Sequence record: OR699282.2
Reading direction: 5' to 3' (one strand)
Origin: Escherichia phage BAU.Micro_ELP-22
Length of the DNA stretch: 64,000 nucleotides
Positions within the stretch are counted from its first letter, which is position 1. Every line of letters starts with the position of its first letter. This document shows, piece after piece, positions 3,297 through 63,456 of this stretch. A program made the translations under genes and the position numbers. The notes below the pieces were generated by a model. That model did no database searches, had not been told where the DNA came from, and saw only the letters and a program-made list of their open reading frames with translations.

Positions 3297-3304
3297 TATA
3301 AATA
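3297..3304 (+). promoter_or_regulatory. T4-type late promoter box TATAAATA
   Basis: Exact TATAAATA about 40 nt upstream of the 3343 start. Confidence 0.5.
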
Positions 3305-3342
3305 ATCTATAGATAATGGCAGCTTGGCTATGGAGAATTATA

Positions 3343-5736
3343 ATGACAACTTTTACCCCACGATGGGATATAAAAGCCGATGCTCGATATATACAAGAAG
3401 GACAAGACATTCTTGTGCGTTTGAGTATCAATAAAGAAAGCACAACGGATGATAGCTATGTATTAAATGAAGATGAATACTTAGAAATGATTCTTAACAT
3501 ACAATGCTTGGATAGTTCAGGTGCTGTATTTGATCCAGAACCACATTATACTTTTTATGTTGGTAATGACGAAAATACTTTTGTTCCTATTTCAGATGGT
3601 ACAACTGGTAATAAATTAGTAAATGGTAAGCATAAGTGTAAAATCAGCAAAAATGAATTTAACTTATCTGCAAGTACTAATAGTGAAGATGTTTATTTTA
3701 TAAAAATTCATTGTAAAAATGATGGAACCTATAATAATACAGAAATTATAAATTTTTATTTACAAGCAGTAAATGTTATGTATTTTGGAAATATTTCACC
3801 AAGTGGTGTTCTAGGATTAACTGATACATCAATAACATATGATAGTCAAGAAGTTTGGGTTACACCCGGAGTTGAGATTGGTGATGACAAAAAGCTTTAT
3901 TGTATTGGTGATGTTGAGTATGGCTCCAACAGTACATTGTTCGTTCAAGGATTTGGAAGAAGACGACCTTTCATTTTGGGTACTGACATGACTACTGATA
4001 TTACACCTCGTGTCTTTTTTCCAGCATATCGTTTGATTGACATGGATATTTCTGAAGTTCCAGATAAACATATTACGAATGATTTCGCAGTATTCAAGCC
4101 AGCACAATCAACATGGCCTATTTCTGGTATAAACAAAGAAGTAAAAGTTAATATTCAAAATAGAAATGGTAATTTAATTGACACTGGAATGGTGTTCAAC
4201 CCAAATGGGCAATTATTGCAAACATTTTTATATGACTCAGATGCTTGTGATGCATATTTTAAAGTTGAGATTGTTGATATATTAAGTACATACACCGAAG
4301 AAAGTGAAAGGTTTGCTATCAATCAACGATATAAAGCATATCAAATGTGGGTTTGTCCTGAAGACATAGATACTATATATTCTATTTCAGAAAAACCACT
4401 ACCCAATCATTTATATCAATTAAAAGATAATGTTGTGTATCCATACGTAATTAGTGGTGAATACGATAATGGAACAATTAAGCCCGTTTATGATAGTAGT
4501 GATTGGATTGATTTAGGATATTATGACTCTACTCTTGGTGATAATATCATTGGTATGCAAAAAATGTTCAGGGTTTTGATAAACGCAGAAGAAGGTAATA
4601 ATATAAACTTTATTACTGATAGTGATTTAGGAACCATACATGTTGGTGAATATTTTGGAGACAGTATATATCCTAAAATTGAAACTGATAGCTCTAATCA
4701 AGTTTCGTATGTTTTAGATGGTGGTGATGACATTAGAAAGTATGGGATAGATTTGACACCAGATGGATATCTTGTAGGAACTGCATATGCCAAAAGTATT
4801 GATTTTAGTGAAAATGATGATATTAAATTATCGTTTTATGTTAAAGCATTTAGTACTGAAGGTGGTGAAGCAAGAAAAATATTTAACCTTAAGATTGTAA
4901 GAGGATTCGGACAGAATTATTTGAGTGCACATGTATTACCTTCGGTTGCATTTGAGAGAGAATGGTTTAAATGTATAAGTACTTCATCATTCACTAATCA
5001 ACTATTTTTCCGACAATCTGACAATAGATATGGTCTTCAGAAAATACCGAAGATGTTATTGAAAGAAAACTTCCTAAGTCAAACGTATCCATATACTAAC
5101 CTTTCTGATATCAAGAAAGTATTGAGAAATAGTATAATTAACCCAAATGGAACTACTATTCCAAATGGAAAATTTAAAATGGTAATGGGTAATTATAAAA
5201 TAATATCAGCACTTGACAATCAAGGTAACTTACAATATGATCTATTATATAGAGAGGTTTTACCTGAAGGTTCTTTAGTATCTGTATCCAAAAATCCACG
5301 TCAATATACTCAAATCGACAACGGTCAGCTTGGTGAATTATTTGGTTTACGACAAAATATTTTTCAGGCTATTGGTGAAGACACAACCAACTTAGTAAAA
5401 GACCCAACCGATTTACAAAATCGTGGTCTATACGTTGATGCGATACCAAGTATCAGTGATGAAATGCTTGATACGGTTCCAAGATTTATGAATCACCCAT
5501 ACATTGAAGATGGTATACAGAAAAAATTCATGCCTATCATTCCAGTTGCATATTGTCAACCAGGCAAAGGTGAAGCATTTTTCAACACTTTACTTCAGAA
5601 CAATGAACATGGTACAATGGTAGGTGTAGAGTTCGAAATCACATCGGTTGAATTCGGATACTTTTCGCATGAATCAGTGAATTATGTTTCAGATACATTT
5701 TTGATTACATTGCAAAACAATAACATAGGAGGTTAA
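3343..5736 (+). CDS. Large hypothetical protein (797 aa), possibly late/structural
   Basis: Long ORF; GGAG RBS before ATG 3343 (track start 3316 lacks RBS); late promoter box upstream; no motif recognised. Confidence 0.6.
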   Translation: MTTFTPRWDIKADARYIQEGQDILVRLSINKESTTDDSYVLNEDEYLEMILNIQCLDSSGAVFDPEPHYTFYVGNDENTFVPISDGTTGNKLVNGKHKCKISKNEFNLSASTNSEDVYFIKIHCKNDGTYNNTEIINFYLQAVNVMYFGNISPSGVLGLTDTSITYDSQEVWVTPGVEIGDDKKLYCIGDVEYGSNSTLFVQGFGRRRPFILGTDMTTDITPRVFFPAYRLIDMDISEVPDKHITNDFAVFKPAQSTWPISGINKEVKVNIQNRNGNLIDTGMVFNPNGQLLQTFLYDSDACDAYFKVEIVDILSTYTEESERFAINQRYKAYQMWVCPEDIDTIYSISEKPLPNHLYQLKDNVVYPYVISGEYDNGTIKPVYDSSDWIDLGYYDSTLGDNIIGMQKMFRVLINAEEGNNINFITDSDLGTIHVGEYFGDSIYPKIETDSSNQVSYVLDGGDDIRKYGIDLTPDGYLVGTAYAKSIDFSENDDIKLSFYVKAFSTEGGEARKIFNLKIVRGFGQNYLSAHVLPSVAFEREWFKCISTSSFTNQLFFRQSDNRYGLQKIPKMLLKENFLSQTYPYTNLSDIKKVLRNSIINPNGTTIPNGKFKMVMGNYKIISALDNQGNLQYDLLYREVLPEGSLVSVSKNPRQYTQIDNGQLGELFGLRQNIFQAIGEDTTNLVKDPTDLQNRGLYVDAIPSISDEMLDTVPRFMNHPYIEDGIQKKFMPIIPVAYCQPGKGEAFFNTLLQNNEHGTMVGVEFEITSVEFGYFSHESVNYVSDTFLITLQNNNIGG

Positions 5737-13805: not shown

Positions 13806-13834
13806 TTGACATATGAGTGCGTTTTTAATATAAT
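13806..13834 (+). promoter_or_regulatory. Sigma70-type early promoter
   Basis: TTGACA, 17 nt spacer, TATAAT. Confidence 0.6.
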
Positions 13835-13858
13835 CTTATTGAAAACGCACTCTTTTTA
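13815..13858 (+). terminator. Terminator hairpin whose loop contains the -10 of the next promoter
   Basis: gagtgcgtttt / aaaacgcactc 11-bp stem followed by TTTTT. Confidence 0.55.
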
Positions 13859-33962: not shown

Positions 33963-34298
<336 letters not shown>

Positions 34299-34299
34299 A

Positions 34300-34482
34300 A
34301 TGACACACGAAGAATGGATGTCCAAACAGCATAAAGAACATGACTGCTTTGGGAATGGCATTCGTCAGGTACATTATGATATATTAAGAGATGAAAATCT
34401 TTTCAGGTCATATGTTTTGGATACCAGAAAACCCTGGTTTATATGCGAACTGGCATTTAGAAAGTCAAATAATCAAAACTAA
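34300..34482 (+). CDS. MTHEEW mini-protein family member 3
   Basis: 60 aa; MTHEEWM...WFICELAFRK. Confidence 0.5.
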   Translation: MTHEEWMSKQHKEHDCFGNGIRQVHYDILRDENLFRSYVLDTRKPWFICELAFRKSNNQN

Positions 34483-34498
34483 ACAAGGAATACAAAAA

Positions 34499-34717
34499 AT
34501 GGAAACAACTTTATTAGAAGTTATTCAATCATTAAAACCTGAAGATGAGGTTCAAGTACTACTACATGGTTATCGTGTAAAAGGTACTGTGGTTTTAGTC
34601 AATGATACAACATTGGTTATTACAGAAACAAACCCATATGATAGTAATCAACTTGCCAATATCCATATCGATATCACTGGAATTATTGGTGTCGGTGTAT
34701 CTAAAACACTTGCATAA
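34499..34717 (+). CDS. Hypothetical protein
   Basis: 72 aa from ATG with AGGAA RBS. Confidence 0.45.
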   Translation: METTLLEVIQSLKPEDEVQVLLHGYRVKGTVVLVNDTTLVITETNPYDSNQLANIHIDITGIIGVGVSKTLA

Positions 34718-34770
34718 ATCATTAATTCATTATATAATGATTATCACTGGTTCTAGATGAGGATAATATT

Positions 34771-35043
34771 ATGCATTTTGAAAAATTCAACGTAAATCGT
34801 AACACACGCATTGAAGTTCTTTATGAAACTCAAGACACCATTAGTATTCGTACAAGTAGTGGGGATGTATATCATGACTGTACGATTGGCTGGGAACAGG
34901 GAAGAACGCGTAGTGCAGTATTTGATAATTATCGCTTTTATCAAGGAGACACTACGATTTGGCCTGAATACGTAGAAGATATTGCGTTTGAAGATGAACA
35001 TAAAGATGAATTTATCAAATTTAATCCTCAAACTGAATCATAA
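34771..35043 (+). CDS. Hypothetical protein
   Basis: 90 aa; GAGGA RBS. Confidence 0.5.
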   Translation: MHFEKFNVNRNTRIEVLYETQDTISIRTSSGDVYHDCTIGWEQGRTRSAVFDNYRFYQGDTTIWPEYVEDIAFEDEHKDEFIKFNPQTES

Positions 35044-35048
35044 ATAAT

Positions 35049-35176
<128 letters not shown>

Positions 35177-35180
35177 AAAT

Positions 35181-35282
<102 letters not shown>

Positions 35283-35287
35283 AAACC

Positions 35288-35448
35288 ATGACGCATGAAG
35301 AATGGATGAATGACATTAATTTTAGATATTCGGGTATCGGTAAATGGCTAAAGTATCATTGGGAATTCATTTCAGAGCCACATATGTATGATAAACTTAT
35401 CAACGATCCAGCATATGAAATGTACTTAATTGAACTACTGGTACGAAT

Positions 35449-35452
<4 letters not shown>
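35288..35452 (+). CDS. MTHEEW mini-protein family member 4
   Basis: 54 aa; MTHEEWMNDINF...; below ORF-track threshold. Confidence 0.4.
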
Positions 35453-35614
<162 letters not shown>

Positions 35615-35624
35615 AAAAAAAAGA

Positions 35625-36033
<409 letters not shown>

Positions 36034-36037
<4 letters not shown>

Positions 36038-36061
36038 CTAAATAATTCAGTACTGTATAAT
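36034..36061 (+). promoter_or_regulatory. Early promoter, conserved-spacer family
   Basis: TTGACT-aaataattcagtactg-TATAAT; drives tRNA-Gly. Confidence 0.7.
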
Positions 36062-36063
36062 GC

Positions 36064-36147
<84 letters not shown>

Positions 36148-36167
36148 TTAATAATTCAAAGGTGAAT

Positions 36168-36344
36168 ATGATGCTATCACACAAAACAGCAACTGTTGAA
36201 AATATTGAATCATTATCTGCACAAGAATTGGTTGACAAAATTAAAGAAGTATGTGATAATAATGGCATTGATATGAATGATACATTTATTAGTGTAGGTT
36301 ATGGTGATTTAGAAATTCAATCTAAAACACTATATTATACTTGA
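36168..36344 (+). CDS. Small hypothetical protein
   Basis: 58 aa from ATG with AAGGTGA RBS. Confidence 0.45.
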   Translation: MMLSHKTATVENIESLSAQELVDKIKEVCDNNGIDMNDTFISVGYGDLEIQSKTLYYT

Positions 36345-36362
36345 CTAAATAGTTCAGTACCG
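36341..36362 (+). repeat. Degenerate copy of conserved-spacer promoter (has -35 and spacer, lacks -10)
   Basis: TTGACTaaatagttcagtacc followed by GAAGGAG rather than TATAAT. Confidence 0.5.
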
Positions 36363-36400
36363 AAGGAGATTAATATGTTTAAAGATGAACGTCCAGATTT

Positions 36401-36441
<41 letters not shown>

Positions 36442-36448
36442 GAATTCC

Positions 36449-36788
36449 ACAATCAGACGTATATGGTGTAAGTTACGTCGATGCAATCCAGAACAAGATC
36501 TCTGGTACTCTAGGAAGTGGTGAATGTTAACCTAGACGGGTTTGATAATTGGACGATAGGCAATTATTACTTGACTAGCAGGTTGAAACTAGAGGTGACA
36601 GTCCTTCACCAAACTGGAAAACCGGATGGACTTTTATTTAAAAGGGTAAGGCGTGGAAATATGTTTACAGAAGTTGCTTTTAGTAGCCTGTACGCCCCAC
36701 GTCAAGGTAGCCGAAAGGCAAGTTAAAACGGATGGTTATAAAGCTGAATTAACAGCGGCGTTTAAAAGCGTCACCATCCATTTTTTTT
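36449..36788 (+). ncRNA. Candidate structured non-coding RNA (about 340 nt) within the tRNA island
   Basis: Starts at predicted TSS of promoter 36413; GC-enriched versus flanks; ends in ggatggt...caccatcc stem plus T8; only internal ORF has GTG start. Confidence 0.35.
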
Positions 36789-36804
36789 AATTAAAGTTGG
36801 TGAT

Positions 36805-37194
<390 letters not shown>

Positions 37195-37210
37195 TATTAA
37201 GTATTGATAT

Positions 37211-37456
<246 letters not shown>

Positions 37457-37461
37457 CTAAA

Positions 37462-37626
<165 letters not shown>

Positions 37627-37650
37627 ACGAAATTACAATAGGAAATTAAA

Positions 37651-37836
37651 ATGCAACTTTTAATTCTTTCAATATTGTATATTATTATAATGGTTCCGAT
37701 ATCAATACGTTTAATTACAGTTGAACGATTTTTATCGAAACATGGAAATAGATCTATGATCTTTGTACCAATCGGGTTGATATTGTTTGGTATATTTTCA
37801 TTTATAATGGGAATTAACGCTACATTCATTTCATAG
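37651..37836 (+). CDS. Small membrane protein
   Basis: 61 aa; two hydrophobic helices; AGGAAA RBS. Confidence 0.45.
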   Translation: MQLLILSILYIIIMVPISIRLITVERFLSKHGNRSMIFVPIGLILFGIFSFIMGINATFIS

Positions 37837-37845
37837 GAAACAAAT

Positions 37846-38103
<258 letters not shown>

Positions 38104-38111
38104 GAATTTAA

Positions 38112-38513
38112 ATGAAAAAGAATGACTTGATCAAAATGCTTCAAGAGATTGACGGCAATCCAGAGATTGTTATTTGGAATGGATATGTCGATGATTATAT
38201 GAACATCGAAAAAGGCTTGACTAAAATCACTCTAGTCAAAGAAACTGAACAGTTCCTTCTGGAAGCATTAGTGCACGAATGGTGCAAACGTAACAATACA
38301 TTCGACATTCCAGAAGATCAACGAACTAAGATTGCAGAACGTGCTAAAGAACTGCATAAGAAACGCGAATACGATTTCCAGAACCCACATGTTACTGAAG
38401 ACGAATTCAATCACTGGTACGGTAAAAAGAAATTGACAAAGTATGTCCTTTCACCTAAACTACGTGGTAAGACTTCACTTGGTGTATTCAACGCCGCAGA
38501 CTTAAACTACTAG
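38112..38513 (+). CDS. Hypothetical protein (paralogue of next gene)
   Basis: 133 aa; N-terminus MKKNDLIKMLQEIDGNPEIV parallels next ORF. Confidence 0.55.
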   Translation: MKKNDLIKMLQEIDGNPEIVIWNGYVDDYMNIEKGLTKITLVKETEQFLLEALVHEWCKRNNTFDIPEDQRTKIAERAKELHKKREYDFQNPHVTEDEFNHWYGKKKLTKYVLSPKLRGKTSLGVFNAADLNY

Positions 38514-38522
38514 CGGGTATTA

Positions 38523-39071
<549 letters not shown>

Positions 39072-39073
39072 TA

Positions 39074-39130
<57 letters not shown>

Positions 39131-39143
39131 AGTAAGAGTAAAA

Positions 39144-39316
<173 letters not shown>

Positions 39317-39328
39317 TATCTTACTTCT

Positions 39329-39407
<79 letters not shown>

Positions 39408-39424
39408 CAAAATAAAGGTACACT

Positions 39425-39850: not shown

Positions 39851-40058
39851 AACAGTTTACAAGCACAATGGTGTGGTGTATCTAGCAGATAATACTGGAA
39901 CTTGGATTGTTAATCAAGGTAATCCACCAAATCCATATTCAGTTGGAAGTGAGTTTTCACTTAAAAGAACATGGCTATCAACTGATAATATGTGTAAGTA
40001 TGGGGATTTTGATACATATGAAGATGCTATGAATCGTGTTCGTTCTATAATTGATTAA
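39843..40058 (+). CDS. Hypothetical protein
   Basis: 71 aa ORF. Confidence 0.45.
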   Translation: MTRTVYKHNGVVYLADNTGTWIVNQGNPPNPYSVGSEFSLKRTWLSTDNMCKYGDFDTYEDAMNRVRSIID

Positions 40059-40428
40059 AAGGTACTTGATGGATAGTCTAATAGTACGTATAATGCAAGA
40101 TGTTCGTAAGAATCTTTATACTGGTAATTTTGATGATCATAACATAAAAATATTATGTTATGATGGTTTCACACTGACACATCCATCAGAATCTAATAAT
40201 ATATACATAGCATATACTTCTCCTAATATTTTGTATCAATTTGATTTATATAGTACAATGGCTAAGATAACCTTAGATGTTTCTAATGAGCCGATTTTTA
40301 TAGCAGTACGTGATGTTGAGTACACAGAAGAGTCATTATTCCAGTACTCAATGATAAATGACATTGGTGACTTGACATTAGAAGAAATAAATGTTATAGT
40401 TGGTATGTGTCGTTTGATTAATCCATAA
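40051..40428 (+). CDS. C-terminal FFQ-x-S motif family member
   Basis: 125 aa; TEESLFQYSMIND. Confidence 0.55.
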   Translation: MIKRYLMDSLIVRIMQDVRKNLYTGNFDDHNIKILCYDGFTLTHPSESNNIYIAYTSPNILYQFDLYSTMAKITLDVSNEPIFIAVRDVEYTEESLFQYSMINDIGDLTLEEINVIVGMCRLINP

Positions 40429-40441
40429 CTCGGAGCTTAAT

Positions 40442-40633
40442 ATGTTTTGGAATTTGTTATGCTTATTTGGTCGTACATTGGTTCTTGCTATTATTCATAC
40501 ACCTGGTATTCGTAATTATGTTTCTTATGAATTTAAGAAAAATTATCATAACAATACTGAAGTTCGTACAACTAAGATGTGCAAAGACTTCAAGGTAGAT
40601 GTTCCACCATTCAAGAAGTACGAGGATGAATAA
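40442..40633 (+). CDS. Small membrane protein
   Basis: 63 aa; hydrophobic N-terminus. Confidence 0.45.
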   Translation: MFWNLLCLFGRTLVLAIIHTPGIRNYVSYEFKKNYHNNTEVRTTKMCKDFKVDVPPFKKYEDE

Positions 40634-40917
40634 TGGAATTCATTGTTGCACCTGATGAACTTAAAACATTTACGTTCAGAGATAATAACAATTATCCTTA
40701 TACAAATCATTCATTGAATTCATTGCATGTTATTTCAATCATTGCATCTGAATACAGAGATAATCCATGTATTGATTTTAAAACCACTGATGGTGAATAT
40801 ACATGGGTGTTCCCAAAAGATAAATATAGTTATCAAGGGGCAGTAGAAATTCGTGACTCGATTCTAAAACAAATCGAAGATGGAAATACTCATCCTAAAC
40901 TAAACACTCAGTACTGA
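40633..40917 (+). CDS. Hypothetical protein
   Basis: 94 aa; TAATG overlap. Confidence 0.5.
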   Translation: MEFIVAPDELKTFTFRDNNNYPYTNHSLNSLHVISIIASEYRDNPCIDFKTTDGEYTWVFPKDKYSYQGAVEIRDSILKQIEDGNTHPKLNTQY

Positions 40918-40931
40918 AATCGTTTAACCCG

Positions 40932-41135
40932 ATAGCTTCTAGTCAGTACTGATTCCTCCTTATGTATAGAAGCTATCACTTTTTTACGTATAATGATATT
41001 ACCCTCAAATTCATTATATTCGTTACCCTCTAACAGTATCTTTTTATTCCTCTTGGATGCTGTAATTTAGAAGTTGACTTTTTAACTTCTACTGTGTTAT
41101 ACTTAAGGCTGATTCGATGAATCGGCCTTTTTTCT
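40932..41135 (+). terminator. Cluster of three hairpins, the last a probable terminator
   Basis: gatagcttcta...tagaagctatc (11-bp stem) plus T6; tagaagtt/aacttcta; ggctgattc/gaatcggcc plus T6. Confidence 0.5.
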
Positions 41136-41151
41136 TATATAGGTGAATGCA

Positions 41152-41571
41152 ATGAGTTATTTGTTTACTTTAATTGATAAGTATGTTGACATTGTATACC
41201 GTCAAGTTTGTAGTGATACGTTTGAAACAAAAAACCCAATTAGAGATGGCATTTTTGATGTTGTCGTTGGATCATTTTTGAATGGATACACCGAGACATT
41301 ATACAACAGTAATAATATTTTTATTTCAGTTCAATCCAGACATACATCAGACTATGCTGTTAGCATTGATATTTGGGAAAATAATATAGAAATAGATATA
41401 ACGGAACATACTAACATTCATGTTGATGATACATTTAATCAATTAACTGAAGAAATGTACTTGCAGTTGAATTTTGTACATGATCTTACAAATATCAGTT
41501 ATGATACATTAAGGAAAATATGTTTTCTTAGTGGGGTGATCCGTAGTAATATGAGTAAGGATGGGAAGTGA
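41152..41571 (+). CDS. C-terminal FFQ-x-S motif family member (variant)
   Basis: 139 aa from ATG with GGTGA RBS; TEEMYLQLNFVHD. Confidence 0.5.
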   Translation: MSYLFTLIDKYVDIVYRQVCSDTFETKNPIRDGIFDVVVGSFLNGYTETLYNSNNIFISVQSRHTSDYAVSIDIWENNIEIDITEHTNIHVDDTFNQLTEEMYLQLNFVHDLTNISYDTLRKICFLSGVIRSNMSKDGK

Positions 41572-41572
41572 A

Positions 41573-41989
41573 ATGTTAAAAATTCCACCTAAGTCGTTAA
41601 CACATCTTATTGAATGTGGTGTAATATTTTCCGAAGGTGATACCTCATCATACACATCGGTCGATGAACCTTATAATTTTTCATACCAATCTTATAAAAA
41701 TAATTCTAAAATTTCTTGTAGATATGCTGAAAACATATTAATAGATGTTTCGTTACATAATGTTCCGAAATTTTACATTGATATCTTTGGTGATTCTTTG
41801 ACAATTCGAACATATGATTATTTTATTAATAACGACCTCTTGAGTCTTCCAATTGAACATGATACTATAGATTCAGAGATGTTCTTTCAACTATCAACAG
41901 TTTACGATTTACAGGGTTTAACTGTTGAGCAGTTGAATGGAATATTTGAGATTTCACGAAACATACGAAGCAGGAATAAAAATGTCTAA
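41573..41989 (+). CDS. C-terminal FFQ-x-S motif family member
   Basis: 138 aa; DSEMFFQLSTVYD. Confidence 0.55.
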   Translation: MLKIPPKSLTHLIECGVIFSEGDTSSYTSVDEPYNFSYQSYKNNSKISCRYAENILIDVSLHNVPKFYIDIFGDSLTIRTYDYFINNDLLSLPIEHDTIDSEMFFQLSTVYDLQGLTVEQLNGIFEISRNIRSRNKNV

Positions 41990-42392
41990 TATTTTAAATG
42001 AAAAAACAGTTGATGTTGTTATTGGTGTTCTTAACACCGCAACTTCATTTCAGAAGAAACACAGTGTTGTATACTTCGGTGAAGATTGTTGGCTGAACTA
42101 TACTAATAATTCGTTTATAATTCGTGTAGAGGCTGATGATATTGGATTAACCGTTCAGGTAGGATGTGCCAAAACTGACAAACAAATCACTGTCATTGTT
42201 GATAAACTTACGTCTTCTTTTTATGATAGTATAGATGATTGTGAACACTATAGTTCAACATTTTATGATACAGAAGAAGAACATTTTATGGAAAGTACTG
42301 TTCAAGAGTTAGCTATTCCATATAAGCTAATGAAAGCAGTGAGTGATTTAATTTTAAAATATAAAAAAATAGGAGTTACTAATGCAATTTAA
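41982..42392 (+). CDS. C-terminal FFQ-x-S motif family member (variant FM-x-S)
   Basis: 136 aa from ATG with AGGAA RBS; TEEEHFMESTVQE. Confidence 0.5.
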   Translation: MSNILNEKTVDVVIGVLNTATSFQKKHSVVYFGEDCWLNYTNNSFIIRVEADDIGLTVQVGCAKTDKQITVIVDKLTSSFYDSIDDCEHYSSTFYDTEEEHFMESTVQELAIPYKLMKAVSDLILKYKKIGVTNAI

Positions 42393-43259: not shown

Positions 43260-43630
43260 TGAGCTTGATAACATTTACAATTATTTGTTGCATTACTATT
43301 GTACTTTGTCGCCTGATTCATGTATACTCATATCATAAAGCGTTGCGAATCGAACAAGAGATTTACAACGAAAACCGAGAACCAGAACCAGTCAAGAAGC
43401 CACCATCACCTTATGGGTTGAAACGTGAGATGCATTCTCAAAGTAAAAAGTGGGGTTATGCAATTACTAAAAATGGCTACATCTATACTGCAAGTAATGG
43501 TTATTTTCAAATTCACCACGAATTAGAAGTGGCAGTTCAAATTTTGTGGGAGATGGAGGACATTGGTGGTTATGAGCGTACTAAGTTTGAATTCATATCA
43601 AATGATCCAGGAACTTCACGAGAAACATGA
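43256..43630 (+). CDS. Membrane-anchored protein
   Basis: 124 aa; N-terminal TM; ATGA overlap. Confidence 0.5.
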   Translation: MMSLITFTIICCITIVLCRLIHVYSYHKALRIEQEIYNENREPEPVKKPPSPYGLKREMHSQSKKWGYAITKNGYIYTASNGYFQIHHELEVAVQILWEMEDIGGYERTKFEFISNDPGTSRET

Positions 43631-43775
43631 TATAATTGTTGATGTGGAGAAGAAGGAAGTCGTTATGAAAAAGCAAGCATATAGAATTTTAGAAGACTTC
43701 CATCTAAAAGCATTTATAATGAAGTTCTGTACAGATGAACATCTTACCGGACGAGTAATACGTAAGGAGTTGTAA
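43602..43775 (+). CDS. Small hypothetical protein
   Basis: 57 aa; start uncertain (alternatives 43563 or 43665). Confidence 0.3.
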   Translation: MIQELHEKHDIIVDVEKKEVVMKKQAYRILEDFHLKAFIMKFCTDEHLTGRVIRKEL

Positions 43776-44117
43776 ATGAACTTAAGTTCAACAATTCAGT
43801 ACTTGAGCAGTAACTTCGAGAAAATTATTTCTCGCGGTGGGATGATTGTACACCCAGAAACAGAGGAAATGTACATCATTGGATTTGATAAAAATTCTTA
43901 TGATCAAGTACTTGTAATTTCCAAGTTAGAAAGTTATAATGAAGTTGTTCAGTTTTGCTGTACCGAATTTGGTATCTATATTAAAGACGCTGAAACTAAT
44001 ACAATTTCGCATTATTTTTACCACACACTGATGGGTACTAAAGACTTCGGCTTGAAGTTCGATGATTTAGTACAATGTCACTATATGTTTAAAACCTTCC
44101 CAGCTAGTGGGCATTAA
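43776..44117 (+). CDS. Hypothetical protein
   Basis: 113 aa ORF. Confidence 0.5.
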   Translation: MNLSSTIQYLSSNFEKIISRGGMIVHPETEEMYIIGFDKNSYDQVLVISKLESYNEVVQFCCTEFGIYIKDAETNTISHYFYHTLMGTKDFGLKFDDLVQCHYMFKTFPASGH

Positions 44118-44130
44118 GGAGTATATCAAT

Positions 44131-44919
44131 ATGAGCAACATTTTCTTCAAAACTATTTCTTTCAAAAAAGCATCTTACTCCTACGCCTACGTTGATGGTA
44201 AAGTGCTTAATATTGTACTGGATGGTGTTGACGTACCAGTTGAATTTAAAACACATGAAGAAGCAGTTGAAGGTGCTAAAGAATTGAATTCAATTCTTAA
44301 TGGTGAAGTAAGTCAAAAACAACATGTAAAATCTGATTTAGATGTACTTTTGGAAAAAATCAAAACTGGTGAAGTATTAGAAATTTTAGACAACTGTAAT
44401 GAAAAACTTCGTAATGTAGTTAATAATGTTCGTGACCAGATTCAAGAAAAAGCACTAGAGCAAGCATTCAAACATGTATCCAAGAATGCTGAATCTCGTA
44501 TTGACGGTATGGTTAAAAATCTTGATGATGTACTATCCCATCTCTTTACTAAAGAATACGAACAAGAAGTTGAAGAAGAACCAGTAAAAGAAACTAAAAA
44601 AGAAAAACGTAGCTTTGGCTCAGGTGATGATGTGTTTGGTTTTACGAATGTCAGAACAAGTGCAGATGAACCAAAAGAAATTAGTGAGATGCTCATTGGT
44701 GACATGACAACTAAGCAGCTTCGTAATGAAATTGACAAGTTTGTAACTAGTTGTATCAAATCAGAACGTGCACAAAGTATGTTTAAAAGCATTAGTGAGA
44801 ACTTTGGTCCAGAAGCAACTGAGCAGGCACTAACTGCATTTAAAGAATTGATTTATAATGTAGCCATTAGCAATCCAGATAAAACACTTGAAGAAGTTCT
44901 ACGTGACAATTTCAAATAA
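44131..44919 (+). CDS. Hypothetical acidic protein
   Basis: 262 aa from ATG with GGAG RBS. Confidence 0.55.
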   Translation: MSNIFFKTISFKKASYSYAYVDGKVLNIVLDGVDVPVEFKTHEEAVEGAKELNSILNGEVSQKQHVKSDLDVLLEKIKTGEVLEILDNCNEKLRNVVNNVRDQIQEKALEQAFKHVSKNAESRIDGMVKNLDDVLSHLFTKEYEQEVEEEPVKETKKEKRSFGSGDDVFGFTNVRTSADEPKEISEMLIGDMTTKQLRNEIDKFVTSCIKSERAQSMFKSISENFGPEATEQALTAFKELIYNVAISNPDKTLEEVLRDNFK

Positions 44920-44931
44920 TTAGATAAAATT

Positions 44932-44961
44932 AAAGCCACTACAATGTAGTGGCTTTTTTTA
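44932..44961. terminator. Bidirectional terminator between convergent genes
   Basis: agccactac/gtagtggct hairpin flanked by A-run upstream and T7 downstream. Confidence 0.7.
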
Positions 44962-46116
44962 TTATGCGTTGTAACCAACTATTACGACTGAGCAGTCAAG
45001 CGGTTCTACTACTTTAAGAATTACATTATCATCTTCATCCACTTGTATTTCACTATGAACTACATGATTGTCTGAAGAATATAATTGAACTTGTGGTAGT
45101 GCTTTACCATGTTCAGTTACTGGAACTGAGATAGAGTACATAGAGTCTTCACCGAGAACCCACTCACTTAAAGTATATTCTTTATGGAAAGGAGTAGTAT
45201 GCAGTGTTTTTCCGATTATACTCAAAGAAACAGGTAAATTATCAGTTTGATACACAGTAATATTACCTTCTGCGTCTACAGAAAGATCTACACCAACTTG
45301 ATATAAGTCACCACTGTATGCTTGAAGTGCTAAGTACTGTCCACGATCATGAACATCAAATGGAACAACCGCAGAAAATACACCTTCCGAAACAGGTTCA
45401 AATTGGGATAGAAGAACTGATGTAACAAAATCAATATCCTCACCACTTTCAAGAACATCAAATTCCACCACTTTAGTGTTATAATATGGAGAAGTGAGTG
45501 TAGCAGTACCTTTCCCTGATTGTGTGATAACATCAACTGGAATTGTAAATGCATCATTAACAAATTGGGTAGTAAAGTATTCTGTCCCGTCTGGTAATAC
45601 GATTGTTATTACCATACCGTTAGTATCAATTTCTGAACCAGTGTTGAATAATTTACCACTAATTGAGTCATTACCAACAAATACTGGTGAAATGAGAATA
45701 TTATCTATATCACGATCTATAATACCACATTCAGGTGTATACATATGATACAAGGTTTGTGAACTACCTAAAATTGTTTTATGTAGCATGAATTTATATA
45801 CAAATCCAGTATCAGTTTCTTGTGGCTCTTCAGAATATCCACGAACAAAGAAACAATTTTTATTAATTTCACTTAATAGTTGGTCATTAGTTTTATTGTA
45901 ATTTAATAGATAACCTTTATTATCTTTAGTTGTTATTTGTACTTTACGATATATTATATTAGTTCTTGGATCAACTAAATCATATAATCTATGGCTTCTT
46001 TGGCGATAGATTCTAATATTTTTTAGTCTAGTTCCATCATTGAGGATTGCACCATCAACAACATAACCACATTCACCAAACTTATAGCGTCCAGCCGCAG
46101 CAATTGACCTTGACAT
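44962..46116 (-). CDS. Hypothetical protein (only minus-strand gene in window)
   Basis: 384 aa; GGAGGG RBS on minus strand upstream of start; no motif recognised. Confidence 0.6.
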   Translation of the reverse strand: MSRSIAAAGRYKFGECGYVVDGAILNDGTRLKNIRIYRQRSHRLYDLVDPRTNIIYRKVQITTKDNKGYLLNYNKTNDQLLSEINKNCFFVRGYSEEPQETDTGFVYKFMLHKTILGSSQTLYHMYTPECGIIDRDIDNILISPVFVGNDSISGKLFNTGSEIDTNGMVITIVLPDGTEYFTTQFVNDAFTIPVDVITQSGKGTATLTSPYYNTKVVEFDVLESGEDIDFVTSVLLSQFEPVSEGVFSAVVPFDVHDRGQYLALQAYSGDLYQVGVDLSVDAEGNITVYQTDNLPVSLSIIGKTLHTTPFHKEYTLSEWVLGEDSMYSISVPVTEHGKALPQVQLYSSDNHVVHSEIQVDEDDNVILKVVEPLDCSVVIVGYNA

Positions 46117-46232
46117 TTATCCCTCCATTGGTATAATTATTATAACGTATTTATTATGCATATCCAAAAAATGAGCTTGACTGGTGTATGATTTGGTGTT
46201 ATCATGTAGTGAATGAATAATGAGGTGTTTTT

Positions 46233-46817
46233 ATGAATGTTATTGATAATAGATTAGTACTGAAAAATGGAAAAATGACTGTTAAGTTATATAAAGATGA
46301 AGCTGATTCCTTTATGGCAAAAGCGATTGAAAAATCAGAAAGATATAAACTTTTGGCTCCAGCAAGTAAATCGCCATATGGTTTTAATCATGCACATAGT
46401 CATTTTGTTGGTATGGTGTGTGAGCACGCATCTTTAGTACTTTTTAATGAAATTGAAAACAATACTGGTATTAAACTTAATATCGATCCAGCATTCCAAA
46501 ATGAAGCACGTGACGGTGAATGTGATATTAAGGTAAACAACCTTCGTATTGAAGTAAAAGGTATCAAGTATAAATCATGGACTGACTTTGGACCATGTGT
46601 TAGTACTCGACAGTTAAAAAATATCCAGAAAAAAGCTGACGTAATACTATGGGTATTGTATAATGAGAAAAAACAAGAGTTCACGTTTGAGGGATTCAAC
46701 TATGTAAAAGATATTAGTTCTATCCCAGTTGTCCTCACTGGTGTACCAGGGCGACCAATGATTGAAAATCACCCAGTACTCGGTATTATGAAACCACTAC
46801 AGGAGTTACCATTGTGA
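46233..46817 (+). CDS. Hypothetical protein; weak PD-(D/E)xK-like D...EVK motif
   Basis: 194 aa; GAGG RBS; RDGECDIKVNNLRIEVKG segment. Confidence 0.5.
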   Translation: MNVIDNRLVLKNGKMTVKLYKDEADSFMAKAIEKSERYKLLAPASKSPYGFNHAHSHFVGMVCEHASLVLFNEIENNTGIKLNIDPAFQNEARDGECDIKVNNLRIEVKGIKYKSWTDFGPCVSTRQLKNIQKKADVILWVLYNEKKQEFTFEGFNYVKDISSIPVVLTGVPGRPMIENHPVLGIMKPLQELPL

Positions 46818-47041
46818 TTACTGCAACTGTATATCAAGATATCAATGAAGAATTTCATTCTAAAATTGCGTTCTTATCATTTCCTGTACTCCCAGTAGTT
46901 GGGTCAACGTTGAATCTTACCATTTGTGGGTTTGAGAAATATTATAAAGTTCTAGATATTGAGTACTGTGCTGATGTGTATTCATGTAATAGTGAAATTG
47001 CAATTCCAGTATCAATCGATATTATTGTAAAAGAGGTTTGA
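46814..47041 (+). CDS. Hypothetical protein
   Basis: 75 aa; overlap coupling. Confidence 0.45.
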   Translation: MITATVYQDINEEFHSKIAFLSFPVLPVVGSTLNLTICGFEKYYKVLDIEYCADVYSCNSEIAIPVSIDIIVKEV

Positions 47042-47499
47042 TTATGTTTAAGAATTTTATGGTTATCGTAGCAGTACTGTTTGGCACATCATGTTTTATT
47101 TCCCCAGTACACGCAGAAGAACAACGTCAAACTATTAAAACTATTGGGACTGGTAAAACTCCCCCTAAACGTACTGCTGACGAATACATGCCTGAAATGC
47201 GTGAACGTTATCGTCAGACATACAGGGAAAAACATGCTAATGATAAACCCATCAAGAAGCATAAATGGGAAGTTGTTAAATCTCCTTCATTTTGTGCTGG
47301 ATATGCTAAAGTAAAGATTGAGCAGCACAAAAACCAGTACTATAAAGATATGTATTCCTTCTATGACTCCAGAATTTCTGACACAGATATGATGGCAGGG
47401 AAGGTTGATAAAGAAGAATTTCTACAAGGCTATGATATGATGGACGATGACAAAATCATGGAATGCGTTGAAGTGTATGAAAAATACAGAGGCTTCTGA
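47038..47499 (+). CDS. Secreted protein
   Basis: 153 aa; N-terminal signal peptide ending VHA-EE. Confidence 0.55.
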   Translation: MIMFKNFMVIVAVLFGTSCFISPVHAEEQRQTIKTIGTGKTPPKRTADEYMPEMRERYRQTYREKHANDKPIKKHKWEVVKSPSFCAGYAKVKIEQHKNQYYKDMYSFYDSRISDTDMMAGKVDKEEFLQGYDMMDDDKIMECVEVYEKYRGF

Positions 47500-47975
47500 T
47501 GTTAACAATAGTGTTGTTGGTAAGTCCATTTGTGTATTTTGTGCTGTATAATATTTTTAGTAATGCTAATCATTTTAAATATGCACAAACAATTGCAAAA
47601 CATGAAGGATTTTGGAATTTTTTCCCAGCGTTACTATGCTCATATCTATACCATGAACGCTATTTCATTTTTCCTGAATATAAAAATTATGGTTATGATT
47701 CTAAAGTAAATGGTATAATTGAGTACTGTATAAGAAATTATCTTAATAATAATGATAACGTCCAAGTAAGAATAGGAAATGGTAATATATCAAGAATAGT
47801 TTTCATACCTGATATACAAGACCCAATATACTTATATCCATATGATTATAGTATTAGTGTAGGTTGTTCGATACATGGTAGTAAATCTATGTACGATTAC
47901 TTTATCTTACCACCAACACAAATTAAATTAATAGAAAAATATTTGAGGGAAAAGTTTGACAACAAAGATTCTTAG
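47499..47975 (+). CDS. Membrane-anchored protein
   Basis: 158 aa; N-terminal TM. Confidence 0.5.
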   Translation: MLTIVLLVSPFVYFVLYNIFSNANHFKYAQTIAKHEGFWNFFPALLCSYLYHERYFIFPEYKNYGYDSKVNGIIEYCIRNYLNNNDNVQVRIGNGNISRIVFIPDIQDPIYLYPYDYSISVGCSIHGSKSMYDYFILPPTQIKLIEKYLREKFDNKDS

Positions 47976-59807: not shown

Positions 59808-59999
59808 ATGTTGATTTATCAAAGTGATAATATTCGTGTTATGCAGCATCCCTACTTACAAATCTTTGATGTGCAGCAGTATATGGAAGGTGATGACCCA
59901 AGAACCTATGGTCGTAAGTATGATTACTTCACTGTAAAGCAGTGTAAAAATATTAACGAAGTACGACAATTAGTTCAAGAACTTCAAAACAAAGGTTGA
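59808..59999 (+). CDS. Hypothetical protein
   Basis: 63 aa from ATG with AAGGA RBS. Confidence 0.45.
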   Translation: MLIYQSDNIRVMQHPYLQIFDVQQYMEGDDPRTYGRKYDYFTVKQCKNINEVRQLVQELQNKG

Positions 60000-60025
60000 C
60001 TTCGGTCAGCCTTTTTTGTTATAAT
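59994..60025 (+). terminator. Composite terminator-promoter element, copy 1
   Basis: ggttgac-ttcg-gtcagcc hairpin plus T6; the hairpin contains TTGACT and is followed 18 nt later by TATAAT. Confidence 0.65.
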
Positions 60026-63228: not shown

Positions 63229-63234
63229 TAAAAA

Positions 63235-63260
63235 GGGTTGACTAAGGTCAGCCCTTTGTT
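63235..63260 (+). terminator. Composite terminator-promoter element, copy 2
   Basis: gggttgac-taag-gtcagccc hairpin plus T-rich tail; contains TTGACT. Confidence 0.6.
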
Positions 63261-63410: not shown

Positions 63411-63418
63411 CAAAATAA

Positions 63419-63440
63419 GGTTGACTTCGGTCAGCCTTTT
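63419..63440 (+). terminator. Composite terminator-promoter element, copy 3
   Basis: ggttgac-ttcg-gtcagcc hairpin plus TTTT; near-identical to copy 1. Confidence 0.65.
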
Positions 63441-63448
63441 CTTTATAC

Positions 63449-63456
63449 TATAAATA
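63449..63456 (+). promoter_or_regulatory. T4-type late promoter box TATAAATA
   Basis: Exact TATAAATA 19 nt upstream of the 63475 start. Confidence 0.5.

What the first reader, a model, noticed from the sequence alone, without database searches (positions are those of the whole stretch)
44932..46232. Single minus-strand gene bounded by a bidirectional terminator and a divergent promoter region
The 384-aa ORF at 44962-46116 is the only convincing minus-strand gene. It converges on a + gene at a shared hairpin (44932-44961) and diverges from the next + gene across a 116-bp region with promoter-like hexamers on both strands. Opposite orientation in a unidirectional block often marks a moron or differently timed gene.
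Basis: partly seen in the sequence, partly recalled or inferred. Interest (0 to 1): 0.5.

Follow-up and report, generated by a model that had tools for sequence, protein, structure and literature searches.

The report
Late virion Ig-protein gene, inverted
The lone backward-facing gene in this jumbo coliphage early region is real and encodes a proteomics-confirmed virion protein (a novel anchor domain plus three Ig-like domains), with its own T4-type late promoter motif and a two-way terminator, so it is probably just a late gene insulated from early transcription.

Summary
The window is an Asteriusvirus jumbo coliphage (121Q/PBECO4/phAPEC6, 99% identical). ORF 44962-46116 (-) is 121Q gp155 = phAPEC6 gp077. 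It is the only minus-strand gene among about 150 annotated genes. It is under purifying selection (dN/dS 0.10-0.16), and mass spectrometry found it in phAPEC6 and CBB virions.

The hairpin at 44932-44956 is invariant in diverged relatives and folds well on both strands.

The 116-bp divergent region holds:
- two rightward sigma70 promoters; the first is a perfect consensus whose -35 overlaps the minus ATG;
- on the minus strand, ATAAATA 31 nt before the ATG. This is the T4-like late motif that precedes 121Q head and tail genes. It is strongly depleted elsewhere in the window.

The same layout (late motif, inverted gene, two-way hairpin, divergent sigma70 promoters) recurs in eight lineages from three named genera and two metagenomic contigs.

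The protein has a basic ~125-aa N-terminal domain with no solved structural relative. More than 100 protein clusters share this domain, including the abundant 14-kDa virion protein phAPEC6 gp347. Three acidic Ig-like domains follow.

Best reading: a late, Hoc-like accessory surface protein. "Differently timed" is supported by inference; "moron" is not. Where it sits on the virion is untested.

The parts
44131..44919 (+). Convergent upstream gene (121Q gp154 / phAPEC6 gp078c), acidic virion-associated protein. The ORF listing extends it to a GTG at 44107; the annotated start is the ATG at 44131, preceded by AAGGAG.
   Evidence: PHROG 14991; phAPEC6 gp078c 4 peptides and CBB_494 1 peptide in virion MS
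44926..44960 (.). Two-way intrinsic-terminator-like element: A-rich tract, 11-bp stem with 3-nt loop (44932-44956; GC core GCCACTAC/GTAGTGGC), then a T-run. It fills almost all of the 42-bp convergent spacer.
   Evidence: dG -18.2/-16.6, z -5.4/-4.7; invariant in UE-S1 and vB_Ec-M-J; analogous A-tract/hairpin/T-tract directly after the ortholog's stop codon in all 8 lineages (raw sequence for CBB); also after the second-locus gene RaK2_00496. Termination itself is not tested.
44962..46116 (-). CDS, 384 aa, 42.88 kDa, pI 4.6: virion structural protein (121Q gp155 = phAPEC6 gp077 = CBB_496 = GAP32_475 = fHe-Yen9-04 g482c), PHROG 10468.
   Evidence: MS: 10 unique peptides, 37.8% coverage and 4 peptides, 17.5%; dN/dS 0.10-0.16; mass equals the published 42.88 kDa
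45742..46116 (-). N-terminal domain (aa 1-~125), basic (pI 9.5), beta-rich. A conserved module always at the N-terminus of proteins with varied C-termini. Inferred to be the virion-anchoring domain.
44965..45714 (-). Three tandem Ig-like beta-sandwich domains (aa ~135-225, 226-305, 306-384), each acidic (pI 4.05-4.5). Inferred to be the outward-projecting arm.
   Evidence: model pLDDT about 85-96 over aa 141-384; Foldseek matches to tandem Ig/FN3 adhesins, filamin and S-layer domains; aa 140-215 match repeat units of giant multi-Ig proteins; PF13620 on two orthologs; pI
46121..46126 (-). Shine-Dalgarno GGAGGG of the minus gene, 4 nt before the ATG.
   Evidence: read from the sequence; GGAGG core kept in relatives, with one change in UE-S1
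46148..46155 (-). AATAAATA: T4-type late-promoter-like motif (7 of 8 of TATAAATA; the ATAAATA core is exact), ending 31 nt before the ATG.
   Evidence: the motif is described for the relatives CBB and GAP32 in PMC5259590; 121Q encodes a late sigma factor, gene 591. Function is inferred.
46110..46137 (+). P1: perfect sigma70 consensus TTGACA-16-TATAAT with extended -10 TG. Its -35 hexamer overlaps the minus gene's start codon (CAT at 46114-46116). It points to the + gene at 46233.
   Evidence: conserved in UE-S1 and vB_Ec-M-J; one of 10 perfect matches in the window, all on +. Activity is not tested.
46177..46205 (+). P2: TTGACT-17-TATCAT (10/12, TG), a second rightward sigma70-like promoter.
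   Evidence: -35 conserved in the three Asteriusvirus lineages; two rightward sigma70-like promoters (at least 10/12) also in fHe-Yen9-04 and CBB, one in GAP32
46233..46817 (+). Divergent downstream gene (121Q gp156, 194 aa, PHROG 16175, function unknown). First gene of the resumed rightward block.
   Evidence: weak NOV_C hit, E 0.037

Best explanation
The inverted gene is a late-expressed accessory virion protein sitting inside an early-gene block of a 121Q-like jumbo coliphage.

Transcription (inferred from sequence and conservation):
1. Early rightward transcription comes from the many host-sigma70 promoters upstream. It stops at the hairpin at 44932-44956 and restarts at P1/P2 (46110-46205).
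2. The gene in between is therefore not read in either sense early in infection.
3. Late in infection the phage's gp55-like sigma factor uses the AATAAATA element at 46155-46148 to transcribe the gene leftward. The same hairpin ends that transcript.
4. Using T4 spacing, the P1 and late start sites would lie within a few bases of each other, so RNA polymerase probably cannot occupy both promoters at once.

Protein:
- Presence in the particle is shown by published proteomics.
- The domain roles are inferred: a basic ~125-aa N-terminal domain docks the protein on the virion, and three acidic Ig-like domains project about 10-12 nm outward. This is the architecture and likely role of T4 Hoc, Bas63 Hex-Dec or T5 pb10, namely weak adherence to surfaces or glycans, non-essential.
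- The same anchor domain exists alone as the abundant 14-kDa virion protein phAPEC6 gp347 / 121Q gp471. It is fused to other Ig arrays in relatives. This suggests one docking site that serves a family of interchangeable surface proteins.
For: Identity and virion presence; MS in phAPEC6 and CBB; predicted mass equals the published 42.88 kDa.

Coding.

Early context: 34 near-consensus sigma70 promoters on +, 2 on -, 2.9 expected per strand. PMC5259590 reads the equivalent CBB region as the early region.

Late motif:
- ATAAATA lies about 20-64 nt (mostly 32-45) upstream of the 121Q major capsid, scaffold, protease, baseplate hub, tail and tail-fibre genes.
- The window has only 12 copies against 43.4 +/- 6.3 expected, and only 2 on the minus strand.
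- Four of the 12 sit 31-41 nt before start codons of annotated virion structural genes, including this one.
- The motif is kept at -31 to -40 in 7 of 8 ortholog lineages.
- A late sigma factor gene is present in 121Q.

Terminator.

Conserved inverted layout. It also holds at the paralog locus.

A co-oriented late gene in the window has terminator hairpins directly before its TATAAATA (63417-63438, then 63449-63456). This fits an insulation logic.

Protein architecture; charge split. The paralog gp347 has 75.2% MS coverage, the highest in the phAPEC6 table.

A natural 58-bp frameshifting deletion inside Ig1 in the viable isolate SD-6_S16 suggests the Ig arm is dispensable.
Against: There are no transcript data for any Asteriusvirus, so timing, start sites and termination are all inferred.

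The motif here is AATAAATA, not the full TATAAATA. A sigma70-like -10 (TATAAT, 46144-46139) lies just downstream, so some host-polymerase expression cannot be excluded.

CBB's authors found no gp33 or gp45 homologs, so the late mechanism may differ from T4's.

The anchoring role of the N-domain is inferred from its position, conservation and the stand-alone paralog. No structure or binding data exist, and no fold match links it to any known capsid- or tail-binding domain.

Other virion-annotated genes in the block (gp62, 63, 69, 78, 154) lack the motif and are not inverted. Virion presence therefore does not by itself require this layout.

The SD-6_S16 genome is a shorter assembly (319 kb), so its deletion could be an assembly error.
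Confidence: 0.68

Rival explanations
1. The transcription signals and the virion protein are as described, but the opposite orientation has no regulatory purpose. It is a frozen relic of an ancient inversion or insertion, kept only because nothing selects against it.
For: Late structural genes with TATAAATA sit in the same window in the + orientation: genes at 3344, 62845 and 63498. T4 soc, an isolated decoration-protein gene in an early region, is co-oriented with its neighbours. Inversion is therefore not needed for late expression.
Against: The inverted layout, with its terminator and divergent promoters, persists in eight lineages with protein identity down to 38% and synonymous sites near saturation. 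It recurs independently at the second locus that carries the paralogous N-domain genes.
Confidence: 0.2
2. It is a tail component rather than a capsid decoration. For example, it could be the base or a subunit of the hair-like fibres seen on the sheath of phAPEC6, 121Q and CBB, or a sheath or neck decoration.
For: Fibres on both capsid and tail are reported and none is assigned to a gene. Ig-like domains are common on tail proteins: PHROG tail families match the Ig parts of relatives, and one relative's N-domain weakly matches part of PHROG 3575 'major tail protein'.
Against: Three Ig domains span roughly 12 nm (general knowledge of Ig domain size), far short of the 119-nm CBB hairs. GAP32 has the ortholog but hairs have not been described on it, and CBB's authors expected hair genes to be absent from GAP32. 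The 'tail' labels in PHROG and RefSeq derive from the Ig domains and are not evidence of location.
Confidence: 0.3
3. It is a moron-like or host-interaction gene expressed from its own sigma70-type promoter (TGGATA-16-TATAAT, 46166-46139) independently of the phage programme. Its detection in virions would then be incidental.
For: It has its own promoter-like hexamers and its own terminator.
Against: The -35 hexamer is not conserved even within the genus, while ATAAATA is kept across genera. GC content is the same as the genome's. The gene is conserved and syntenic in strictly lytic jumbo phages. It was found in virions in two independent proteomes with 10 and 4 peptides, and its paralog is among the best-covered virion proteins.
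Confidence: 0.04
4. The minus-strand ORF is not a gene but a chance open frame opposite an untranslated stretch.
For: None beyond its odd orientation.
Against: P(open) is about 2e-12 and codon usage is frame-specific. dN/dS is 0.10-0.16. There are 15 homolog clusters. Peptides were detected.
Confidence: 0.005

Closest known systems
T4 Hoc (highly immunogenic outer capsid protein)
   Same: Similar size (376 aa, from memory, against 384 aa). Three tandem Ig-like domains plus one non-Ig virion-binding domain. Acidic Ig array. Non-essential accessory in T4; here a natural truncation exists. The hosts are distant T4 relatives with gp23-, gp20- and gp55-like genes.
   Different: The polarity is reversed: the anchor is N-terminal here and C-terminal in Hoc. 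There is no sequence similarity (no Pfam hit; no PDB sequence hit) and no fold match of the anchor domain. Binding at hexamer centres is not shown here.
Bas63 Hex-Dec / Sf14 gp20 (Felixounavirus hexamer decoration protein; PMC12609058)
   Same: An N-terminal binding domain followed by a variable number of Ig-like repeats. One Bas63 decoration protein is encoded more than 10 kb outside the structural module; the passage does not say which. Negatively charged Ig arm, proposed Hoc-like role.
   Different: The anchor domain of the present protein gave no match in PDB fold searches through April 2026, so it is not demonstrably the same fold. Hex-Dec is not reported as an inverted gene island.
phAPEC6 gp347 / 121Q gp471 / RaK2_00496 (PHROG 33171 and relatives)
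   Same: A homologous N-domain (33% identity, E 1e-15). Virion protein. Also encoded as a lone inverted gene followed by an A-tract/hairpin/T-tract.
   Different: It is the stand-alone domain (125 aa), or the domain plus one Big_2 domain in RaK2. It lies at a different locus, next to dCMP deaminase. In phAPEC6 its ATAAATA lies about 190 nt upstream rather than about 31 nt.
T4-type late promoter (TATAAATA, gp55-dependent) as proposed for Rak2-like phages (PMC5259590)
   Same: A-rich -10-type element without a -35, found upstream of structural genes. A gp55-like sigma factor is encoded.
   Different: It matches 7 of 8 of the T4 consensus. No gp33 or gp45 homologs were found in CBB. No experimental mapping exists in this phage group.
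Bidirectional intrinsic terminators between convergent genes
   Same: A GC-rich hairpin flanked by an A-tract on one side and a T-tract on the other, filling a short convergent spacer.
   Different: The minus-direction U-tract is interrupted (UUUAAUUUUAU). Efficiency in either direction is untested.

Membership tests
PHROG 10468 / Rak2-like phage 'virion structural protein, Ig-domain' (121Q gp155 orthologs) | Full-length sequence match to the family profile | tested here: met
   E 7.6e-184 over 1-383 of 384; 100% identical cluster and orthologs at 38-80% identity
PHROG 10468 / Rak2-like phage 'virion structural protein, Ig-domain' (121Q gp155 orthologs) | Product present in purified virions | not testable with these tools
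   Taken from the literature for orthologs: phAPEC6 gp077 and CBB_496. Not measured for this exact isolate.
T4 Hoc family | Sequence homology to Hoc | tested here: not met
   No Pfam hit above threshold; no PDB sequence match
T4 Hoc family | Tandem Ig-like domains plus one capsid-binding domain | tested here: inconclusive
   Three Ig-like domains plus one non-Ig domain are present, but in the opposite order, and capsid binding is not shown
T4 Hoc family | Binds the centre of major-capsid-protein hexamers | not testable with these tools
   Unassigned density exists at hexamer centres of 121Q and phAPEC6. Nothing links it to this protein.
Bas63 Hex-Dec-like decoration proteins | N-terminal capsid-binding domain of the Hex-Dec fold | tested here: not met
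Bas63 Hex-Dec-like decoration proteins | Ig-like repeats C-terminal to the binding domain, in variable number among relatives | tested here: met
   relatives carry the same N-domain with 0 to more than 7 Ig-type domains
T4-type late promoter | TATAAATA-like element about 30-45 nt upstream of the start codon and no -35 | tested here: met
   AATAAATA ends 31 nt before the ATG; the upstream -35-like hexamer is not conserved
T4-type late promoter | Motif associated with structural genes and avoided elsewhere | tested here: met
T4-type late promoter | gp55-type sigma factor with gp33 and sliding-clamp co-activation; late-only transcripts | not testable with these tools
   A late sigma gene is annotated in 121Q. 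gp33 and gp45 homologs were not found in CBB. No RNA data.
Moron | Autonomous promoter and terminator flanking a single gene | tested here: met
Moron | Atypical composition or patchy presence indicating recent insertion | tested here: not met
   GC 33.5% against 33.2%, 56th percentile; conserved synteny over three named genera and metagenomic relatives
Moron | Product serves the host or lysogen rather than the virion | tested here: not met
   Virion protein by MS in two phages
Bidirectional intrinsic terminator | Stable GC-rich hairpin followed by a U-tract on both strands | tested here: met
   the minus-direction tract is weaker
Bidirectional intrinsic terminator | Actual 3' ends of both convergent transcripts at the hairpin | not testable with these tools
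   Needs term-seq or 3' RACE

The most novel reading that the evidence does not exclude
The ~125-aa N-domain is a previously unrecognised, structurally novel virion-docking module of Rak2-like jumbo phages. In this reading the stand-alone form (phAPEC6 gp347 / 121Q gp471) is one of the unassigned capsid decoration proteins. The gp155-type fusion (anchor plus three Ig domains) is the unassigned two-armed density at the centre of each hexamer in the 121Q and phAPEC6 capsids. The family then acts as a cassette system: one docking site, with interchangeable Ig or other arms encoded in inverted late-gene islands at two conserved loci. That would allow fast diversification of the particle surface.
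Probability: 0.25. Interest if true: 0.6.

Novelty: new variant of a known kind. Interest (0 to 1): 0.38.

Why it matters
It turns an oddly oriented "hypothetical/structural" gene into a testable assignment. It gives a named candidate, and a paralog, for surface densities that two cryo-EM studies of 121Q and phAPEC6 could not assign. It defines an anchor domain with no solved relative, present in more than 100 protein clusters. It gives clean sequence-level support for a T4-like late promoter in Asteriusvirus: the motif is depleted genome-wide except in front of structural genes. Practically, a dispensable, surface-exposed Ig arm on a conserved anchor would be a natural display site on a therapeutic jumbo coliphage. 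The transcriptional layout itself is ordinary phage logic.

Tried and rejected
- Pfam gave nothing above threshold for the protein or its two neighbours.
- PDB sequence searches found nothing, with the protein or with a 47-sequence N-domain profile.
- Fold search of the whole model returned only generic tandem-Ig matches with poor TM scores.
- I looked for a paralog inside the window by tblastn and found none. It lies elsewhere in the genome.
- I recalled T4 soc as an inverted late gene in an early region. The T4 record shows it is co-oriented with its neighbours, so I dropped that analogy.
- I looked for transcriptome data on Asteriusvirus or Rak2-like phages and found none.
- The phiKp24 jumbo-phage capsid paper turned out not to be informative for this protein. 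One call failed on syntax.
- The RaK2 relative found with the N-domain is the ortholog of the second locus, not of this gene. RaK2 is therefore not counted as having the gp155 arrangement.
Full report
**What the window is.** Megablast of 43500-47500 finds 20 phage records at 99.2-99.8% identity. All are Asteriusvirus jumbo myophages of E. coli or Salmonella: 121Q, PBECO4, SP27, phAPEC6, G17 and others. More distant members are at 87% (UE-S1) and 79% (vB_Ec-M-J group). The minus ORF is 121Q gene 155, annotated "virion structural protein; structural protein, Ig-domain". It is also phAPEC6 gp077.

**Checking the observation.** The ORF is at 44962-46116 on the minus strand, 384 aa with an ATG start.
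- In the 121Q RefSeq annotation for the stretch equivalent to the whole window (genes 52 to 201, plus tRNAs), gene 155 is the only minus-strand feature.
- The next longest minus-strand open frame is 150 codons. The chance of 384 open codons at this base composition is about 2e-12.
- Against the diverged orthologs, dN/dS is 0.16, 0.10 and 0.14, and changes concentrate at third codon positions.
- Codon usage resembles the + genes only in the annotated frame (cosine 0.92 against 0.53-0.71).

**The hairpin.** The 42-bp convergent spacer is almost filled by an A-rich tract, an 11-bp stem with a 3-nt loop (44932-44956) and a T-run.
- It scores as terminator-like on both strands.
- It folds at -18.2 and -16.6 kcal/mol, z -5.4 and -4.7, and none of 200 shuffles folds as well.
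- It is identical in UE-S1 and vB_Ec-M-J, although the flanks differ.

**The divergent spacer and the early context.** The spacer 46117-46232 is 116 bp.
- On the + strand it has a perfect TTGACA-16-TATAAT with an extended -10 at 46110-46137, and TTGACT-17-TATCAT at 46177-46205.
- The local scan of all weak matches is not enriched over shuffles.
- The near-consensus class (at least 11 of 12) is very asymmetric window-wide: 34 on +, 2 on -, 2.9 expected per strand.
- The block is therefore a host-sigma70-driven early region. The authors of phage CBB proposed the same for its equivalent region (PMC5259590).

**The minus-strand promoter.** The CBB paper reports that structural genes of CBB and GAP32 are preceded by ATAAATA, resembling the T4 late promoter TATAAATA. 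I tested this in 121Q.
- The motif lies about 20-64 nt (mostly 32-45) before the start codons of the major capsid protein, scaffold, protease, baseplate hub, tail and tail-fibre genes, among others.
- In the window the 7-mer is strongly depleted: 12 copies against 43.4 +/- 6.3 expected, and only two on the minus strand.
- Four of the 12 lie 31-41 nt before start codons of genes annotated as virion structural proteins. These are the genes at 3344, 62845 and 63498 on the + strand, and this gene on the minus strand.
- Here the element reads AATAAATA (46155 to 46148) and ends 31 nt before the ATG, with GGAGGG as the ribosome-binding site.
- The sigma70-like hexamers that the scan reports on the minus strand (TGGATA-16-TATAAT) have a -35 that changes even within the genus.
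- 121Q encodes a "sigma factor for late transcription" (gene 591).

**Geometry of the two promoters.** The -35 hexamer of P1 (46110-46115) overlaps the minus gene's start codon (CAT at 46114-46116). Its -10 lies in the minus gene's leader. The late element lies just beyond P1's expected start site. Taking the usual spacing from the -10 to the start site (general knowledge of sigma70 and T4 late promoters), the two start sites would be within a few bases of each other, around 46141-46144. Polymerase occupancy of the two promoters should then be mutually exclusive. This step is inference.

**Conservation of the layout.** The ortholog is the lone inverted gene in a one-directional block in all of these:
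- UE-S1 and vB_Ec-M-J;
- Mimasvirus CBB and GAP32;
- Eneladusvirus fHe-Yen9-04;
- two metagenomic contigs whose proteins are 38-42% identical.

In all eight lineages an A-tract/hairpin/T-tract follows the stop codon. In seven, ATAAATA starts 31-40 nt before the ATG; the eighth has GTAAATA. At least one sigma70-like promoter (at least 10/12) points the other way in seven. UE-S1 had none within the stretch scanned, although its copy of P1 is intact. GC content equals the genome's, and the GC skew flips sign as expected for an old resident encoded on the other strand. This rules out a recent moron-type insertion.

**Insulation of a co-oriented late gene.** Gene 201, a co-oriented late gene at the right end of the window, has terminator hairpins immediately before its TATAAATA. 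This fits the idea that late genes placed in the early block are insulated from early read-through. For gene 155 the insulation is achieved by inversion plus one shared terminator.

**The protein in the particle.**
- phAPEC6 gp077 (42.88 kDa, the mass I compute for this ORF) was found in purified virions with 10 unique peptides and 37.8% coverage (PMC7247149).
- CBB_496 was found with 4 peptides and 17.5% coverage.
- The convergent neighbour (gp078c / CBB_494) is also virion-associated.

**Protein architecture.** There is no Pfam match and no PDB sequence match.
- A 14-sequence alignment gave an AlphaFold model with three confident beta-sandwich domains over aa ~135-384. Their best structural matches are tandem Ig/FN3 arrays of adhesins, filamin and S-layer proteins.
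- An exhaustive profile search found 160 proteins. Two match patterns stand out. Residues 140-215 match repeat units of giant multi-Ig proteins. Residues 1-~122 match the extreme N-terminus of about 100 proteins of 124 to 1859 aa.
- The remainders of those proteins are Big_2, Big_1, Invasin_D3 or unassigned domains.
- The N-domain is basic (pI 9.5) and each Ig domain is acidic (pI 4.05-4.5).

**The paralog.** tblastn with the N-domain showed a second copy in most Rak2-like genomes.
- It is a stand-alone 125-aa protein: SP27 EO157G_4430, 121Q gene 471, phAPEC6 gp347. It is 33% identical to residues 3-124 of the present protein.
- gp347 (14.10 kDa) has 8 unique peptides and 75.2% coverage, the highest coverage in the phAPEC6 virion table.
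- It too is a lone inverted gene followed by an A-tract/hairpin/T-tract, next to dCMP deaminase. RaK2_00496 is its ortholog, with one added Big_2 domain.
- In relatives the same island carries a 641-aa or a 653-aa N-domain protein.
- The N-domain genes therefore form a diversifying family encoded in inverted islands at two conserved loci.

**Interpretation.** The architecture is a conserved terminal domain plus a variable, acidic Ig array. A stand-alone version is abundant in the virion. A natural 58-bp frameshifting deletion within Ig1 occurs in the viable isolate SD-6_S16. These are the hallmarks of accessory decoration proteins such as T4 Hoc, T5 pb10 and Bas63 Hex-Dec. Hex-Dec has the same N-to-C order, and one Bas63 decoration protein is encoded far from the structural module, though the passage does not say which (PMC12609058).

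Low-resolution maps of 121Q and phAPEC6 show an unassigned decoration protein along the capsomer ridges. They also show an unassigned two-armed fibrous density at the centre of every hexamer, besides long fibres on head and tail. The present protein and gp347 are reasonable candidates for the first two, but nothing here tests that.

The 119-nm tail hairs of CBB are too long for three Ig domains. GAP32, on which hairs have not been described, has the ortholog.

**Verdict.** The gene is already annotated and proteomically known as a virion protein. The additions here are:
- the late-promoter assignment;
- the deep conservation of the inverted, terminator-bounded layout at two loci;
- the recognition of a widespread N-terminal module without a solved relative, shared with an abundant small virion protein.

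Interest is moderate. The mechanism is ordinary phage gene-timing logic, and the protein is a new variant of the Hoc-like class whose position on the particle remains to be shown.

Noticed in passing
window, whole (matches at 3298, 20888, 20892, 22891, 33332, 33962, 35040, 39257, 40820, 46148, 62802, 63450): The 7-mer ATAAATA is about 3.6-fold depleted (12 copies against 43.4 +/- 6.3 expected). A third of the survivors sit 31-41 nt before start codons of virion structural genes. This looks like genome-wide avoidance of a late-promoter word.
   Followed up: partly
window, whole: 34 near-consensus sigma70 promoters (at least 11 of 12) on the + strand, 2 on the minus strand, about 2.9 expected per strand. 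Ten are perfect 12/12 and all are rightward. This is an unusually dense early-promoter array.
   Followed up: partly
window 59991-60014, 63232-63257, 63417-63438: A recurrent terminator hairpin (AAGGTTGACTTCGGTCAGCCTT and close variants). Its left arm contains a TTGACT -35-like hexamer. At 59996 it pairs with a TATAAT 18 nt downstream, so terminator and next promoter appear fused into one compact unit.
   Followed up: no
window 13806-13852: A perfect TTGACA-17-TATAAT promoter overlaps a 16-bp-stem hairpin whose left arm and loop contain the TATAAT. This could be a promoter occluded or regulated by DNA or RNA structure.
   Followed up: no
window 40051-42392: Four consecutive small ORFs (125, 142, 142 and 151 aa) share a C-terminal motif (roughly F-Q-L/Y-S-x-V/I-x-D-L-x-x-L-T-x-E-x-L...). 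They look like tandem paralogs in the early block.
   Followed up: no
window 46233-46817: The first gene after the inverted gene (121Q gp156, 194 aa) has a weak NOV_C (restriction-endonuclease-like) hit, E 0.037, and a D...E-V-K stretch compatible with a PD-(D/E)XK nuclease motif.
   Followed up: no
L019 (Salmonella phage SD-6_S16) 1463-2559; also SD-1_S14: A 58-bp deletion (nt 476-533 of the CDS, aa 159-178) frameshifts the gene into two ORFs (242 and 97 aa) in otherwise 99.7-99.8% identical phages. It is either a natural knockout of the Ig arm or an assembly error.
   Followed up: partly
L013 3498-3875 (SP27), L014 1399-1776 (phAPEC6 gp347), L009 3001-3639 (RaK2_00496), L020 6001-8320, L021 6001-7962 and 9332-11074: A second conserved locus next to dCMP deaminase holds one or more inverted genes. 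They encode the same N-domain alone or fused to other C-termini (641 aa with no Pfam hit; 653 aa with five Big_2 domains). This is a variable island of surface-protein genes.
   Followed up: partly
window 33985-39408: Seven tRNA genes, all on the + strand: Gly-tcc twice, Ser-tga, Ser-gct, Met, Asn and Thr. They are interspersed with tiny ORFs and near-consensus promoters. The tRNA set differs slightly from the 121Q annotation of the same region.
   Followed up: no
L018 (T4 NC_000866) 3332-3574: T4 soc, an isolated decoration-protein gene in an early region, is co-oriented with its early neighbours. Inversion is therefore not a general feature of such genes in T4.
   Followed up: yes
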